A DNA stretch of 39,054 nt. Source: a virus (lineage: Duplodnaviria; Caudoviricetes). Location of the stretch: IMG/VR virus record IMGVR_UViG_3300014818_000016, positions 1 to 39,054 of that record. One strand, written 5' to 3'. A program made the position numbers and the translations under genes. The notes below the pieces were generated by a model. The model saw nothing but the letters and a program-made list of their open reading frames with translations, had not been told where the DNA came from and made no database searches. Positions 4,717 to 35,313 of this stretch are shown here, piece by piece. Positions within the stretch are counted from its first letter, which is position 1. Every line of letters starts with the position of its first letter.

Positions 4717-5283
4717 ATGTCTCGCGTTATTGATGATGAAACGGTGCTGGCAATGCAGGCTGATGTTGTTAGGCCGATAGTCTTGGTGAAGATTGCCACG
4801 CCTTCGCTTGATATATTAATGACCAGCGGAATGCAGGATATTGACTTTGGCGGAGACACTTACACCTATGGAACTCTTGGCAATATCAGCACAATACCAG
4901 AAACGGACGATTTAAAGGATTCATCTATATCACTAACCTTTAGCGCTGTTGATCCTGCTACTATTGCGGCCGTATCTGCTGCTGACTTTGTTAATAGTCC
5001 AGTTCAGGTTAGAGTTATGTTCTTCGACGAAAATTGGGTTTCAGTCGGCGATGGTTTATCGTTCTTTGAGGGTAGTGCAAGCTCTCAAAACATAGCTTTA
5101 GGTAAGCAAGCTGAAATTACGGTATCATGTAAGTCTAAAATTTCAACACTTAGCCGCCCTCGGTCTGAAAGATACAGTGATCAAGACCAACAAGCTAAAT
5201 ACCCGGGCGACCTGGGTATGCAATACGCATCAACAGTTTCAAGCCAAGATATTATTTGGCCCGCTTCGGAGTGGTTTGGTTAA
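4717..5283 (+). CDS. Minor tail tip/hub protein (DUF2163-like)
   Basis: C-terminal RYSDQDQQ..YPGD.G..Y......I.W motif; synteny. Confidence 0.7.
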   Translation: MSRVIDDETVLAMQADVVRPIVLVKIATPSLDILMTSGMQDIDFGGDTYTYGTLGNISTIPETDDLKDSSISLTFSAVDPATIAAVSAADFVNSPVQVRVMFFDENWVSVGDGLSFFEGSASSQNIALGKQAEITVSCKSKISTLSRPRSERYSDQDQQAKYPGDLGMQYASTVSSQDIIWPASEWFG

Positions 5284-12428: not shown

Positions 12429-12453
12429 ATCGCAATTCTCCAGTTAAGAATTA

Positions 12454-12528
12454 TCAGTAAGATTTGAAGTGGAAGCTGGTTACTGAGGCCAGTTTTCACC
12501 CGCTAAGGCTATCCACTCGCTTACTATA
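12454..12528 (-). ncRNA. Structured leader RNA upstream of ant (C4-antisense-like), with -10 TATAGT
   Basis: Outer stem AGUGGA/UCCACU encloses two hairpins (loops UUAGCG and CCUCAGUAA); UUACUGA downstream is complementary to the second loop. Confidence 0.6.
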
Positions 12529-23039: not shown

Positions 23040-23498
23040 ATGAGTCATTCAATTACTTGTAAGTTAAATAACGATGCCCGCAGCCATCAAGGACAGGCAG
23101 GAACCACATTTTTTGTGAGCTTAGGCGAAAAGAATTACAACTTTAAGACCAAGCAAAACGAATACACCAATTATGAAGCGGCATTGTTTGCTAAAGATGC
23201 TCAGATTGGTTTTTATCAATCAGCCCTGATTGCTGGTGCGATTGTTGAGGTTTCTGGCACTGGAATCTTGATGGAGATTGACCCGACTGGTCAGTATAAG
23301 CCTAAGCTGGTTATTCAGGATGCTAAATTGGGATTTGTTCATAGTGATAATCAAGGCGCACCGCAACAGCAAGGCCAGCAACAACCTATGCAGCAGGCAC
23401 CACAACAGCAGCAAGGTGGTTTTCAGCAGCAATATCAACAGCAGGGCCAGCAACAGCAGCAGGCACCTCAAGGAAATTTCAACCAGCCCCAGCGATAG
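23040..23498 (+). CDS. ssb: Single-stranded DNA-binding protein (short form; -1 frameshifted long form would end at 23587)
   Basis: Follows erf; OB-fold-like N-terminus (K..EYTNY.A.LFAK...G..VEV.G), Q-rich linker; DDDIPF lies in the -1 frame. Confidence 0.85.
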   Translation: MSHSITCKLNNDARSHQGQAGTTFFVSLGEKNYNFKTKQNEYTNYEAALFAKDAQIGFYQSALIAGAIVEVSGTGILMEIDPTGQYKPKLVIQDAKLGFVHSDNQGAPQQQGQQQPMQQAPQQQQGGFQQQYQQQGQQQQQAPQGNFNQPQR

Positions 23499-23513
23499 GG
23501 GCTCAAACATCGC
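23474..23513 (+). promoter_or_regulatory. -1 frameshift signal: A AAT TTC plus H-type pseudoknot
   Basis: Heptamer 23474-23480 in phase; stem 1 agcccc/ggggct (23485-23503); loop gcgat pairs with atcgc (23509-23513). Confidence 0.8.
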
Positions 23514-23592
23514 ATAGTAATGGTTTTGATTCGTTCGATGATGATATTCCATTTAGTAACTACCAGCTAAGAGGATACTGGATTTAGAATAA

Positions 23593-23631
23593 ACCGCCTA
23601 AGTTTGCAGTTTTGGATTTAGGCGGTATAAT
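23593..23631 (+). promoter_or_regulatory. Sigma70 promoter embedded in an inverted repeat
   Basis: TTGCAG-16-TATAAT; accgcctaa/ttaggcggt inverted repeat. Confidence 0.7.
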
Positions 23632-23637
23632 TAGTAC

Positions 23638-23777
23638 ATGGTGTTTAGCGGCATCAATAGAATGATTAAGTGCAGAGTGAAGGGTTTTTAATATAAAACA
23701 GGTTCAGTTGGGTTTAAATGCTCTGCTAAATCGCCCTCGCTAAGCTGCGGTCTGTTTTATATTAAGAGCCTTTTTTT
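23638..23777 (+). ncRNA. Attenuator-like leader RNA (c4-a1b1-like architecture)
   Basis: 5' hairpin with UUAGCG loop, then long stem agggtttttaatataaaacagg/tctgttttatattaagagcctt plus T-run; loop holds ctctgc and cgctaa, complementary to upstream gcagag and ttagcg. Confidence 0.65.
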
Positions 23778-23807
23778 ATGCCTCGAATATAAATAAACCA
23801 TTCTTTG

Positions 23808-24147
23808 ACCACTAACACCTACTCAGATTATCGAGTATAGGTAGTGGTGTCTCGTATTGCATCCATCATCAAAAAGATAGTTTCACAACAAAGCTCAAGC
23901 GTTATCAACGAAAGCGGATAATGCAAAGTTAGCCAGAAGCGTTAAAAATGGTTAGCGGATTAGAAGGATGATCATATTGACCTAATCTTACCGTGGTCAG
24001 TATTAAGCAGAGTTTTATTTGCCATTGGCTAGAAATAGTCTGATAGGTTCCAGCAAGAATTAAAACTGTACTCTGATAAGTTTGATGTGATGCCAAGTAA
24101 GTTAAGAATTAAACACTAGGAATAGCTCTGTATAGGCAAGAGATTCC
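23808..24147 (+). ncRNA. Candidate large structured non-coding RNA
   Basis: No ORF of 60 aa or more; at least seven helices, long-range closing stem, GAAA tetraloops, G-U pairs consistent with plus strand. Confidence 0.6.
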
Positions 24148-24186
24148 TTCTAATGATAACTATGTAAAAAATTAAGTGAGAATAAT

Positions 24187-24408: not shown

Positions 24409-24449
24409 CCACCCAAAGCGGCTATACACATAGCCGCACTATAGAGAGA

Positions 24450-24635
24450 ATGATTATGAGTATGTCAAAAATAGAAAAGAACATCTTGATCGTATTTGCA
24501 GCAGTATTTGTTTTATTTATTGGCAGCTGTAGATATACGGTGGTTTCAATAAATGAGGCTGGAGGTCTAAAGCAGTTAATTATTGATGCTGGTAAGGATA
24601 TTAAAGAAATAAGTAAGGCCATAGACGAAGAGTAA
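24450..24635 (+). CDS. Small membrane protein or possible lipoprotein
   Basis: TM segment ending IGSC; start uncertain. Confidence 0.55.
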   Translation: MIMSMSKIEKNILIVFAAVFVLFIGSCRYTVVSINEAGGLKQLIIDAGKDIKEISKAIDEE

Positions 24636-29530: not shown

Positions 29531-30910
29531 ATGGCTAACGTAAAATACACAAATACAGAATATGTAGCTAAGGCTGATAACTGGGCCAAAACTCGGCTAG
29601 CCTGTAGCGCAAACGGAATTAAAGATGCTGGCACCTTATATTTGCCAATGGCGCTGGATAAAGACCAAGATAAATACACTGCATATAAGAAGCGCGCATT
29701 ATTCCTTGGTGTAACTGGTCGCACTCGGTCTGCATTAGTTGGGGCCGCCTTTCGTGTTGAGCCTACATTTGTTGAAGACTTGCCAAGCCAGTTGGATTTT
29801 ATCACCAGTGATTTTGACGGGTCAGGCGTATCAATTGACCAAGTAGCTAAGCGAATGGTTAGCGAGATTCAAACAGTTGGCCGTAATGGTTTGATGGTTG
29901 ATTTTCCAACGGTGCCAGAAGGCGCAAGCCGTGAAGATGAGTTAAATCTAGGTGTTCATCCATTTGCAGCAAGCTATACGGCTGAATCGATTATTAACTG
30001 GGAAGAAACGAAAGTTAATGGCAAAACTCAGCTTTCAATGGTTGTGCTCAAAGAGGTGACTCAAGAGGCCAGAGAAGGTGAAGAGTTTGAAAAGGAAGCA
30101 GTAACACGCTATCGATCACTACAGCTTATTGGTGGTTTGTATGTTGTCCGCTTGTGGGATTCAGAAGGTGAGTTAATTGGCGAGCCTTCAGAGCCTAGAA
30201 TTAATGGCGTGCGACTTGATTACATTCCTTTCTATTTCACTGGCTCAGAAGACAATAAGGCTTCAGTTGATGAGATACCGCTAGAGCCGATAGCAGAGAT
30301 TAACATTGGTCACTATCGCAACTCTGCCGACTTCGAGAAGAATCTTTATATTCACTCGGGTGGCACAATGGTTGTTATGTCCTCTATGGACTCAGCAGAA
30401 TGGAAAGAAGTTAATCCTAACGGCGTTGTAGTGGGTGCTGATAGCGGCATTAAGTTAATGCAAGGCGATGATGCCAAGCTATTGCAATTGGAGCCTGCAA
30501 GCGCTGTTAACGAGGCAATGATTCGTAAAGAAGAGCAGATGATTTCTATCGGTGCTCGAATGATTACCTCGGGCAACATAAACGAGACAGCAGAGGCGGC
30601 TAGAATATCTGCCAGCTCTGAAACTTCAACACTTAGTACAATCGTTGGAAATATTGAAGAAACTTTGAATCGGGCACTGGCTGTAATGGCCGAGGCATTG
30701 AAGGTTGATGCTCCAGTGTATTCAATGAATCGTGATTTCTTTGACTCTAAGCTAACTGCTCAAGAGTTTATGGCAATCAATGTAATGTATGACGCTGGCC
30801 ACATTGCTAGATCAGACGTTAAGAATGTATTGCGTAAATCTGGAATTGTTGGTGCAGAGCGTACTGATAAAGACATTGATGATGAGAATTTGAGCGCTAG
30901 CCCTGTATGA
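29531..30910 (+). CDS. Portal protein (DUF4055 type)
   Basis: YLP, Y..Y..RA.F..VT.RT, Y.AE.IINW, N.GHYRNSAD motifs; follows terL. Confidence 0.9.
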   Translation: MANVKYTNTEYVAKADNWAKTRLACSANGIKDAGTLYLPMALDKDQDKYTAYKKRALFLGVTGRTRSALVGAAFRVEPTFVEDLPSQLDFITSDFDGSGVSIDQVAKRMVSEIQTVGRNGLMVDFPTVPEGASREDELNLGVHPFAASYTAESIINWEETKVNGKTQLSMVVLKEVTQEAREGEEFEKEAVTRYRSLQLIGGLYVVRLWDSEGELIGEPSEPRINGVRLDYIPFYFTGSEDNKASVDEIPLEPIAEINIGHYRNSADFEKNLYIHSGGTMVVMSSMDSAEWKEVNPNGVVVGADSGIKLMQGDDAKLLQLEPASAVNEAMIRKEEQMISIGARMITSGNINETAEAARISASSETSTLSTIVGNIEETLNRALAVMAEALKVDAPVYSMNRDFFDSKLTAQEFMAINVMYDAGHIARSDVKNVLRKSGIVGAERTDKDIDDENLSASPV

Positions 30911-31869
30911 GTACTACAGGCTATTTAATAGACGCAACCACTAGACACGCAATATTCGTTGAGAGATACGGCCACGGGCGATATAACGACCTAGAGCCAA
31001 TCTTGAATGATATGCGCGATAAGCTGGTGGCTAGGTTGTCTAGTGAGAACCTAACAGACTTTCAGTTCTTTCGCGCTCAGGCCTTATTAGCTGACATCGA
31101 TGACATAATGGCTCAGTCATTCCAGCAATTCGAACTAGATTTGAATGGCTATATTAGCGAGTTCTCAGAATACGAAGCAGGCTTTAACTCTCGAATGTTG
31201 CAAGGTGCTGTAAAGGTTGAGGTGGATATTCCAGCTATTGAGCAACTAAACGCAGCTATCAATAATACCGACATGGTATTAACTCAGCAGAGTGGCGCAG
31301 TTCAGCGGATGACGATTAATGAAGCTATTGATCAATTCAGCGTTAAGAAGTCCCAAGAGATTAGAGGCTTAATCAATCAAGGGCTTATCGCTGGTGAAAC
31401 TACTGATGAGATAACACGCAAGGTTTCACGCACTGTCAATAAGCGAACTAAGGCGCAGGCTAGGTCTTTGGTATCCACTACGATTAGCGCAACGTCTAAC
31501 CAAGCGCACAACCAAACTGCTAGGGCTAATAGTGATGTATTGCGAGGCGAGCAGATAATAGCGACCTTAGACAGCCATACAAGCGACATCTGCATTAGTG
31601 CTGATAAAACTATTTGGACAGTGGATGAAGGCCCATTTCCGCCGCTTCACTGGGCTTGCCGGAGCCTTAGAGTGATGTTAGTCGAGCAGAAATACGCTAT
31701 ACCAGGACTAGAGGGCACTAGAGCCAGTGAGTCTGGACAAGTATCATCTAATCTTAGTTATCGAGGTTGGCTAAAACTTCAGCCAAAAGAGGTGAGGGAA
31801 CGGGTCAACATAAAGAAAACCTACTCCCTTCAAGAGCTTGCGGCATTGGAGCCAGTTACTTTTCTTTAG
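30907..31869 (+). CDS. Minor head morphogenesis protein (SPP1 gp7/Mu gpF-like)
   Basis: ATLD..TS.IC...D....PPLH..CRS motif. Confidence 0.88.
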   Translation: MSTTGYLIDATTRHAIFVERYGHGRYNDLEPILNDMRDKLVARLSSENLTDFQFFRAQALLADIDDIMAQSFQQFELDLNGYISEFSEYEAGFNSRMLQGAVKVEVDIPAIEQLNAAINNTDMVLTQQSGAVQRMTINEAIDQFSVKKSQEIRGLINQGLIAGETTDEITRKVSRTVNKRTKAQARSLVSTTISATSNQAHNQTARANSDVLRGEQIIATLDSHTSDICISADKTIWTVDEGPFPPLHWACRSLRVMLVEQKYAIPGLEGTRASESGQVSSNLSYRGWLKLQPKEVRERVNIKKTYSLQELAALEPVTFL

Positions 31870-34524: not shown

Positions 34525-35313
34525 ATGAAGTACGAAAAAGGAATGAGATGGAATAGCCTTACGCTTATGTCTGACTTATCAGGCGGAGACTGTTTTAAAT
34601 CCACTTATAAATCTGTATTTATGTGTGACTGTGGGCTTAATCACTTTGCAACATTGAATAACGTCACCAATAGCGTAGTTAAATTCTGCTCTGCTTGTAG
34701 TGCGGCCAAGAAGTCTAAAAATAAAAAGACGCATGGTAATTCCATGTCATTTAAGGATAGGAATCCGCGTGGCTATAACTGCTATACAAGATGGCAGGCA
34801 ATGAAGCGAAGATGCAACAATCCAAATGATAAGCGCTTTTCTGATTACGGTGGTCGAGGCATTAAGGTTTGTGATAGATGGTTAGAATCGTATGAGAATT
34901 TTCTTGCCGATATGGGCCTACCTCCTGAGATTAGTTATCAAATAGATAGAGTTGACAATAATCTTGGCTACAGTGCCGAAAACTGCAAATGGGTTACAAG
35001 AACGGAAAACGCCAGAAACAAACGCAATAATAGATTGATTGAAGTTGATGGTGAGATAAAAACTCTTTCCGAATGGGCGGAGTTGAACGGTATTGATCGC
35101 AAGACCATAACCAATAGGATTAAGGCTGGCATAAGCCCAAAGAAAGCAATGGATTCGAACGCTAATTTTTCCCAGTATATATACCAGACTCCTAATGGTG
35201 AGTTTGATAGTTTGAGTAAAGCGGCTAAGTCAGTTAAAATGTCAATAAGTGGAATTAATGGCAGGTTCATTAATCCTAAATACAAAGAATGGGTGAAGCA
35301 TGAAAGAACCTAA
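34525..35313 (+). CDS. Free-standing HNH homing endonuclease
   Basis: W..MK.RC.NP....YGGRGI.VC.RW...F..DMG...IDR.DN..GY...NC.W.T...N..N motif. Confidence 0.9.
   Translation: MKYEKGMRWNSLTLMSDLSGGDCFKSTYKSVFMCDCGLNHFATLNNVTNSVVKFCSACSAAKKSKNKKTHGNSMSFKDRNPRGYNCYTRWQAMKRRCNNPNDKRFSDYGGRGIKVCDRWLESYENFLADMGLPPEISYQIDRVDNNLGYSAENCKWVTRTENARNKRNNRLIEVDGEIKTLSEWAELNGIDRKTITNRIKAGISPKKAMDSNANFSQYIYQTPNGEFDSLSKAAKSVKMSISGINGRFINPKYKEWVKHERT

What the first reader, a model, noticed from the sequence alone, without database searches (positions are those of the whole stretch)
23808..24147. Candidate novel ~350-nt multibranched non-coding RNA
Seen: 23588-24186 is the largest ORF-free gap in a densely coding genome and is almost fully pairable. 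Helices: accact..acctactc/gagta-taggt-agtggt (23808-23848); long-range closure gcatc+catcaaa (23859-23873) with tttgatg+gatgc (24081-24093); inside it gcgttatc/gataatgc (23899-23924, c-GAAA-g cap), gttagcca/tggttagc (23928-23956), atattgacc/ggtcagtat (23974-24003), and a long arm cagagt/actctg, gtttta/taaaac, ttgc/gcaa capped by ggcta-GAAA-tagtc (24008-24075); 3' hairpin ggaat..ctct/agag-attcc (24119-24147). ggattag (23957-23963) can pair with ctaatct (23982-23988) as a possible pseudoknot. Mismatches are G-U on the plus strand, which favours an RNA over a DNA cruciform. I do not recognise tRNA, tmRNA, RNase P or intron cores. Function unknown: ribozyme, protein sponge/anti-defence decoy and replication primer are all hypotheses.
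Basis: partly seen in the sequence, partly recalled or inferred. Interest (0 to 1): 0.82.

Follow-up and report, generated by a model that had tools for sequence, protein, structure and literature searches.

The report
Pseudoknotted noncoding RNA of marine phages
This gene-free stretch of an uncultured marine phage holds a roughly 350-base sequence whose base-pairing, including a long-range knot, is kept by compensating changes in related phages and matches no Rfam family; it is very likely an RNA gene, predicted to act on its own during infection, likely as a protein-binding decoy or scaffold.

Summary
23808-24160 (+) is a conserved, non-coding, structured element. Homologues: a near-identical core in another phage (L139), a diverged copy (L182, 65 substitutions over 23816-24113) and a distant copy (L167, E=3e-6 with a model built without it). 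Across window, L139 and L182, 17 of 114 pairs change on both sides and 98% of cells stay paired. Substitutions show no codon periodicity. Two corrections follow. The proposed pseudoknot breaks in L182; instead 23959-23968 pairs with 24145-24154, a covarying long-range pseudoknot kept in L167. Upstream lies a separately varying leader: a conserved sigma-70-like promoter, a 22-bp covarying hairpin and a U-run. The cassette follows three different ssb alleles, lies beside a methylase-like gene in L167 and is missing at this site in close relatives, so it behaves as optional cargo. There is no Rfam match. Helix order resembles the RNase P catalytic domain, but the bulged U and CR-V GG are missing and RNase P models do not score. 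Folding energy alone is unremarkable, covariation rests on few lineages, and expression is untested. Most likely a new family of trans-acting ornate phage RNA (decoy or scaffold, about 50%).

The parts
23040..23498 (+). Upstream gene: single-stranded DNA-binding (OB-fold) protein, ssb
   Evidence: tblastn hits (47-49% over residues 1-102) annotated SSB or OB-fold in Vibrio phages; no PHROG or Pfam hit
23593..23626 (+). Inverted repeat overlapping the promoter (possible ssb terminator or operator)
   Evidence: RNAalifold helix with several double changes across window, L139 and L182
23603..23631 (+). Sigma-70-like promoter (TTTGCA-17-TATAAT); start predicted near 23638
   Evidence: 10 of 12 consensus match (4 sites found against 5.0 expected in shuffles, so not significant alone); TATAAT invariant in window, L139 and L182 while the flanks diverge
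23639..23656 (+). Leader hairpin H1
   Evidence: 6 pairs, 2 with double changes, none broken
23681..23777 (+). Leader long hairpin H2 (about 22-bp stem, branched top) followed by a U7 run; terminator-like or RNase III-site-like (inferred)
   Evidence: z=-3.2 for 23636-23785; 21 pairs counted, 2 double changes, 5 one-sided, 98% paired; the terminator scan did not call it
23808..24160 (+). Core structured RNA (about 353 nt)
   Evidence: 23816-24113 differs at 2 of 298 positions in L139 and at 65 (plus 5 gaps) in L182; distant homologue L167
23808..23848 (+). 5' hairpin P0
   Evidence: inner 8 pairs: 2 double and 2 one-sided changes; outer 6 pairs kept in all three sequences with one-sided changes
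23846..24160 (+). End-closing stem (23846-23858 with 24152-24160; exact register uncertain)
   Evidence: GGTGTC pairs 6 of 6 in L182 and 5 of 6 in window and L139; an alternative 4-bp register is kept in window and L182, and L167 has a 5-bp closing stem; no double change
23859..24093 (+). Long-range closing helix (23859-23873 with 24081-24093)
   Evidence: nearly invariant among window, L139 and L182; replaced by a different 4+9-bp helix with a 3-nt bulge in L167
23899..23924 (+). Hairpin with invariant AACGAAAGCG cap
   Evidence: 2 double changes and 1 one-sided; a diverged 5' arm with the same spacing and cap appears as a loose end in run X12
23928..23956 (+). Hairpin with conserved loop
   Evidence: 3 double changes in 8 pairs
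23959..24154 (+). Long-range pseudoknot helix (23959-23968 with 24145-24154), crossing the closing helix
   Evidence: found by RNAalifold; 3 double changes, 1 one-sided, 1 broken in L182; 8 of 8 pairs in L167
23974..24003 (+). Hairpin; its loop CTTAC (23987-23991) may kiss GTAAG (24097-24101)
   Evidence: stem: 1 double and 1 one-sided change; 23980 A>G gives G-U in runs X12 and X14; the kissing pairs never vary, so they are untested
24008..24079 (+). Long arm with GAAA cap and the most conserved motif, CCRGCAAG-N3-TW-AAACTGT-NCN-CTGATAA (24050-24079)
   Evidence: cap stem has 2 double changes; basal stem has an A-U to C-G change in L167; the motif, built from the four sequences, matches all four exactly and none of the other non-homologous loci exactly
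24119..24147 (+). Variable 3' hairpin region (upper stem 24125-24137; lower stem competes with the pseudoknot)
   Evidence: two alleles among close relatives; upper 3 pairs kept

Best explanation
The element is a conserved, non-coding, base-paired cassette carried by some marine phages; it is very likely an RNA gene, predicted to be transcribed from the upstream sigma-70-like promoter, and its ~350-nt core likely folds into a compact pseudoknotted particle that would act in trans as a protein-binding decoy or RNA scaffold. Shown: the helices, their covariation, the absence of a coding signal, changing neighbours and patchy presence. Inferred: transcription starts near 23638. The leader's long hairpin and U-run would either stop part of the transcripts or be cut by an RNase III-type enzyme, releasing the core. 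The core's ends are tied together, and its two long-range helices cross. The bases kept between the most distant copies cluster around that crossing and form the working surface. Because no partner gene travels with it, the ligand would be a host protein or complex, or the RNA itself, as in the homo-oligomers of ROOL and GOLLD. The benefit would be conditional, as expected of counter-defence cargo.
For: Covariation: 17 of 114 pairs change on both sides and 98.2% of 341 cells are paired, against shuffle means of 5.6 and 93.9% (0 of 500 as high); slid controls give at most 1 double change. L167 scores 33.6 bits, E=3.4e-6 in 333 kb, with a model built without it, and keeps the closing helix, the pseudoknot helix and the arm stem with new sequence. 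Non-coding: substitutions against L182 fall 26/27/26 over the three codon positions, with four 1-nt indels and one 2-nt deletion inside 23816-24160. Neighbours differ: a 73-aa unknown in the window, MazG-like in L139, a 61-aa unknown in L182, and a methylase-like gene upstream with a ParB-like gene downstream in L167 (labels by eye). Optional: in L002 ssb is followed after 45 bp by the orthologue of ORF 24187, and the 96%-identical ssb of L146 has a 110-bp gap. Contigs from three studies other than the likely source carry the core with few changes and new flanks (X4, X8, X13, X14). No reverse transcriptase, Cas, IscB, TnpB or integrase family among 44 window proteins scanned. No antisense-like match in the genome beyond chance: 14 11-mers against 14.0 expected.
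Against: No direct evidence for a ligand, an oligomer or an anti-defence effect; this step rests on elimination and analogy. Only four distinct sequences were found, and L139's core is 99% identical, so core covariation is essentially one pairwise comparison plus L167. The structure was partly derived from these sequences, which inflates the controls. Folding energy is not exceptional. The middle hairpins (23899-23956) could not be aligned to L167. The conserved bases at the pseudoknot junction would equally fit a catalytic core. A run from an oyster metagenome holds the leader with the core cut off at 23914, so the element can decay.
Confidence: 0.5

Rival explanations
1. A ribozyme, most specifically a much-diverged RNA built like the RNase P catalytic domain without a specificity domain, that cuts or binds tRNA-like or other RNA.
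For: The order of elements matches bacterial RNase P as seen in L265 and the RF00010 consensus: closing stem, P2-like helix, hairpins, GGA then a helix pairing with the far 3' end, short A-rich joint, stem with a 3' internal loop, GAUA-type joint, return to P2, hairpin, AGA, pseudoknot strand. The few bases conserved with L167 sit at those joints. Diverged RNase P RNAs lacking P12-P14, P18 or the CCA-binding motif exist (PMC8172020, passages read). Loss of the bulged U lowers activity but does not abolish it (PMC3488217, passages read).
Against: The bulged U of P4 and the GG of CR-V are absent in all four copies, and the corresponding pairs vary freely. The L15-like loop reads UGU, not GGU. 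There is no S domain, and a 4-5-nt linker separates the P4-like and P5-like helices. RF00010, RF02357 and RF00373 give no match at E<=10 in 3 of 3 records, although they ring in distant control genomes. The match of joints is by eye and has no null model.
Confidence: 0.2
2. A cis-acting regulator of the long rightward lysis and morphogenesis transcript, like a late promoter with leader and terminator plus a put-type antiterminator RNA (families recalled, not tested).
For: In window, L139 and L182 the cassette lies between ssb and genes leading to lysis or terminase on the same strand. The promoter, hairpin and U-run are conserved.
Against: L146, with a 96%-identical ssb and shared downstream gene types, lacks promoter, leader and core at this site. 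L167 carries the core in the methylase region without this leader. The next gene differs in every case. No Q-type antiterminator family was found. The reading fits the leader better than the core.
Confidence: 0.12
3. A selfish or intron-derived mobile RNA (ORF-less group I or II intron, or retroelement RNA) inserted behind a terminator.
For: Patchy presence, two different genomic sites, a position behind a hairpin and U-run, and a truncated copy. The crossing helices also fit the P3/P7 order of group I introns in outline (recalled).
Against: It interrupts no gene. RF00028 gives no match at E<=10, and the full Rfam scan gives none. No reverse transcriptase family is in the genome. I saw no group II domain V or P7 guanosine site by eye.
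Confidence: 0.1
4. A structure that works as single-stranded DNA (origin or priming signal) next to ssb.
For: Adjacent to ssb in 3 of 4 copies.
Against: 12 pairs vary only by one-sided changes of the G-U type, and two GAAA caps are kept. A promoter is conserved upstream. L167 is not next to ssb. The phage has lambda-like O/P/DnaB replication genes elsewhere.
Confidence: 0.04
5. Chance structure or a decayed protein gene.
For: Folding z-scores are modest.
Against: Double changes in most variable helices, an independent distant homologue, and no codon periodicity.
Confidence: 0.04

Closest known systems
ROOL (RF03087) and GOLLD RNAs, large ornate RNAs of phages and prophages (PMC12286853, passages read)
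   Same: Phage-borne, large, multi-helix, pseudoknotted, with no associated protein gene and no known function. ROOL is reported as non-essential in one strain.
   Different: No Rfam score. The single-family ROOL search was blank, but its controls were blank too. This core is about 350 nt against 659 nt (ROOL env-120) and over 800 nt (many GOLLD). No tRNA gene is in this genome, whereas ROOL and GOLLD often lie near tRNA islands. Oligomer formation is untested.
Bacterial RNase P RNA, catalytic domain (RF00010; truncated RF02357; archaeal RF00373)
   Same: Order of closing stem, crossing P2-like and P4-like helices and short joints (GGA, AA, GAUA, AGA), judged by eye against L265.
   Different: No bulged U, no CR-V GG, UGU instead of GGU, no S domain, and no covariance-model score.
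Group I introns (RF00028)
   Same: Two crossing long-range helices with peripheral hairpins; similar size (recalled).
   Different: Interrupts no gene; no model score; no conserved guanosine-binding pair seen.
Lambdoid late-promoter leader with terminator, and RNase III processing stalks of phage transcripts (recalled)
   Same: The leader has a promoter, a ~140-nt transcript, a long stem and a U-run ahead of lysis and head genes.
   Different: Absent from close relatives at this site; no Q family found; the core behind it has no counterpart in those systems.

Membership tests
Any Rfam 15 family | Covariance-model score at or above the gathering threshold | tested here: not met
   No hit in the element at E<=1 over the window; only weak miRNA, snoRNA and lncRNA hits far below threshold for L182 and L167
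RNase P RNA | Score with RF00010, RF02357 or RF00373 | tested here: not met
   0 of 3 records at E<=10 for each model; controls rang in 11, 8 and 13 of 14 genomes. The first-look filter may drop very weak candidates.
RNase P RNA | P4 pseudoknot crossing P2, with ends closed by P1 | tested here: met
   Equivalent crossing helices: the P4-like one covaries; the end-closing stem is present, but its register is uncertain
RNase P RNA | CR-I with universally conserved bulged U in P4, and CR-V GG (PMC3488217, PMC4919922) | tested here: not met
   Compared with L265, all four copies lack the bulged U and the GG
RNase P RNA | L15 GGU pairing with tRNA RCCA (PMC4919922) | tested here: not met
   The equivalent position reads UGU in all four copies; some true RNase P RNAs also lack the motif (PMC8172020)
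RNase P RNA | S domain (CR-II and CR-III) | tested here: not met
   A plain hairpin (23974-24003) stands at that place
RNase P RNA | Cleaves pre-tRNA 5' leaders | not testable with these tools
   Needs an in-vitro assay
ROOL / GOLLD | Sequence and structure match to the family models | tested here: not met
   Full Rfam scans are blank; the single-family ROOL search is uninformative because its controls did not ring; GOLLD was not searched singly
ROOL / GOLLD | Near tRNA genes in phages or prophages | tested here: not met
   0 tRNA or tmRNA genes in the window; other records not scanned for tRNAs
ROOL / GOLLD | RNA-only homo-oligomeric cages | not testable with these tools
   Needs mass photometry or cryo-EM
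Group I intron | RF00028 score; interrupts a gene | tested here: not met
   0 of 3 records at E<=10; intergenic in all four copies
RT- or nuclease-associated ncRNA (retron, DRT, OMEGA) | Adjacent reverse transcriptase, IscB or TnpB gene | tested here: not met
   None among 44 window proteins scanned with PHROGs or 24 proteins scanned with Pfam; the record is estimated 93% complete
tRNA / tmRNA | ARAGORN call | tested here: not met

The most novel reading that the evidence does not exclude
The core is a phage-borne RNA built on the RNase P catalytic-domain plan, without the specificity domain and with a rewired active site (no bulged U; UGU in place of the CCA-binding GGU). It is either a new class of ribozyme with a non-tRNA substrate or an RNase P mimic that captures the host RnpA protein or tRNA ends during infection.
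Probability: 0.12. Interest if true: 0.92.

Novelty: new variant of a known kind. Interest (0 to 1): 0.66.

Why it matters
Large bacterial and phage RNAs with crossing long-range helices are few, and the known ones have turned out to be ribozymes or self-assembling cages. This is an uncatalogued family with natural variants at 99%, about 78% and barely alignable identity, and with natural deletion and truncation alleles. At about 350 nt it is small enough to synthesise, so fold, oligomer state and catalysis can be tested directly. If the RNase P-like layout reflects ancestry, it would show a catalytic-domain scaffold repurposed by viruses.

Tried and rejected
Expression: no RNA holder was listed among 20 runs, which says nothing either way. 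blastn of the element: no real match in cultured phages (window, L182, L167), plasmids or E. coli genomes. Viral pattern scans: searches (only 17 of 64 parts scanned) gave only chance hits or none; one search gave 39 loci, of which 1 was real and was again L182; one search gave 1 real of 3. Bacterial genome scans: 0 for an exact 23-mer and 26 chance hits. 31 ssb-related viral records by blastn: no real match (this missed L167, which shows blastn is too blunt here). Model R1 over 76 records found only L182 and L167, plus 2 weak hits that fell away. Model R2 over 80 records, including 8 cultured marine phages, gave one coding-region chance hit; over 3 bacterial genomes, none. A 30-letter motif with up to 3 mismatches in 401 genomes of one order gave 3 hits, none supported by the model. 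The CTTAC/GTAAG kissing pairs stay untested because they never vary, and L167 offers at best 4 pairs by eye. Contig depth values were not used. Literature searches listed no paper on this RNA. In Fremin et al. 2023 (PMC10690425; passages read) the candidates are 29-151 nt. Six motifs were not found in 3 of its 6 listed supplementary files; the other three, and three further files too large to open, were not searched, so a fragment of this RNA could be catalogued there. Earlier scan findings held no look-alike sequence.

Full report
Setting. The window is a whole 39-kb virus record, estimated 93% complete. Its genes are those of a lambda-like siphovirus: O/P/DnaB-type replication, NinB/NinG, Erf, lysozyme, terminase, portal, head and tail, with no integrase, reverse transcriptase or Cas-type family among 44 proteins scanned. 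The best terminase matches are phages of Oceanospirillum, Pseudoalteromonas and Vibrio, so a marine gammaproteobacterial host is inferred. The finding lies in the largest gap between credible genes, 688 bp between ssb and ORF 24187.

Checking the observation. The + strand folds better than shuffles (z -2.5, 3 of 100) and the - strand does not (z -0.7); 23636-24186 gives -3.2. This is not decisive: 3 of 56 tiled genome windows score below -2.5, the homologue L182 gives -1.4 and L167 gives -0.5. Rfam and ARAGORN give nothing.

Homologues. Contigs from marine runs of other studies hold the element with different flanks. One 37-kb contig covers 23604-24163 with 15 changes, and others cover 23816-24165. 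A metagenome scan gave L138 and L139, one phage with a different ssb. There the core 23816-24113 differs at 2 of 298 positions, while the upstream 208 bases differ at 70. A loose end in run X12 showed a diverged arm with the same spacing and the same AACGAAA cap. A pattern built on that found L182 (1 real of 3 hits), again directly behind a third kind of ssb, with promoter and leader. A profile search of the loci in hand then flagged L167. A covariance model of the 3' part built from window, L139 and L182 scored it at 33.6 bits, E 3.4e-6 in 333 kb, with the next hit at E 0.34 (E-values are rough). L167 lies behind a methylase-like gene and lacks the leader. That makes four distinct sequences; all wider searches found no more (see Tried and rejected).

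Structure. On the three-sequence alignment, 114 pairs in 16 helices give 98.2% paired cells, 17 pairs with changes on both sides and 12 with one-sided changes. The shuffle means are 93.9% and 5.6 (0 of 500 as high), and slid controls reach at most 1 double change. Thirteen double changes are in the core and four in the leader. The structure was partly drawn from these sequences, and the core signal is in effect window against L182, so this is strong pairwise support and not a statistical covariation test. L167 is the independent check. It has a 4+9-bp closing helix of new sequence, 8 of 8 pairs in the long-range helix and an A-U to C-G change in the arm stem. Its middle hairpins could not be aligned. 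The same strand pairs instead with 24145-24154, crossing the closing helix. Substitutions against L182 fall evenly over codon positions (26/27/26), and there are frame-breaking indels, so it is not a protein gene.

Anatomy and behaviour. The cassette has two separable parts. The leader (about 23593-23777) has a promoter whose TATAAT is invariant in three sequences, a small hairpin, a 22-bp covarying stem and a U-run; at least three alleles occur. The core is 23808-24160. The gene behind the core differs in all four copies. L002 has ssb directly followed by the orthologue of ORF 24187, and L146, with a 96%-identical ssb, has only 110 bp there. An oyster-metagenome run holds the leader with a core that stops at 23914. 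This is the pattern of optional cargo, not of a fixed control element.

Mechanism. The best reading (about 0.5) is a trans-acting RNA. It would be made from the leader promoter, released by termination read-through or cleavage at the long stem, folded into a closed pseudoknotted particle, and act by binding a host factor or itself. That it is a real structured RNA element I put near 0.9; expression and ligand are inferred. The bases shared with L167 cluster at the pseudoknot junction, which also fits a catalytic core (about 0.2). Cis-antitermination (0.12), a mobile intron-like RNA (0.10), a DNA structure (0.04) and chance (0.04) are weaker, for the reasons listed.

Comparison with known systems. 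In kind it resembles ROOL and GOLLD, phage-borne ornate RNAs of unknown function that form RNA-only cages (PMC12286853, passages read). It is smaller, has no tRNA neighbours and does not score with Rfam. The order of helices and joints follows the RNase P catalytic domain when set beside a real bacterial RNase P RNA. However, the bulged U and CR-V GG that define that family (PMC3488217 and PMC4919922, passages read) are missing, the L15-like loop reads UGU, there is no S domain, and three RNase P models give no match at E<=10. It is not a member; a derived relationship is not excluded (about 0.12). The group I model is blank as well.

Novelty. There is no Rfam family, no paper in six searches (listings only, apart from the five papers whose passages were read) and no look-alike among earlier scan findings. 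A fragment could sit in supplementary files of PMC10690425 that I could not read. The scan has noted other orphan pseudoknotted phage RNAs, so the broad kind recurs while this family appears new. Verdict: real, uncatalogued, function open; interest 0.66.

Noticed in passing
window 23474-23552 (end of ssb); L146 near 4498; L149 near 3882; L150 near 4480: The acidic C-terminal DDIPF tip typical of SSB lies beyond the TAG stop, in the -1 frame, behind A AAT TTC and a 6-bp G-C hairpin. L146 has the same layout, and L149 and L150 put the IPF tip in the +1 frame behind a similar hairpin, while most other alleles end in PF in frame. This may be a programmed frameshift giving SSB with and without its tip. 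In the window the -1 frame runs 10 residues past IPF.
   Followed up: partly
window 23636-23785: The leader may be a ~140-nt small RNA in its own right. It varies independently of the core, its branched top seems able to pair in two ways in all three alleles (by eye), and a short low-depth contig in run X18 leaves the window sequence right after it.
   Followed up: partly
window 24420-24464: A 45-bp intergenic hairpin and ribosome-binding segment is identical in L139 and shared with runs X3, X4 and X8 although the genes around it differ; a likely module-swapping junction.
   Followed up: no
window 12452-12519 (-): Weak Rfam match to int-alpA RNA (29 bits, gathering score 35.8, E 0.037) just upstream of the anti-repressor gene.
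   Followed up: no
window 30808-31160 and 708-1060: Coding windows with the lowest folding z-scores in the tiling, -4.3 and -3.5 (12 shuffles each).
   Followed up: no
L153 5113-5914: An 800-bp gap without long ORFs downstream of ssb in another marine phage, starting with a terminator-like hairpin; it does not match this RNA.
   Followed up: no
L162 4478-4519 and about 4770-4811: A ~42-bp hairpin-containing sequence is repeated directly in two successive intergenic gaps behind ssb.
   Followed up: no
window 34525-35313: Free-standing HNH endonuclease gene between the major head gene and the neck genes.
   Followed up: no
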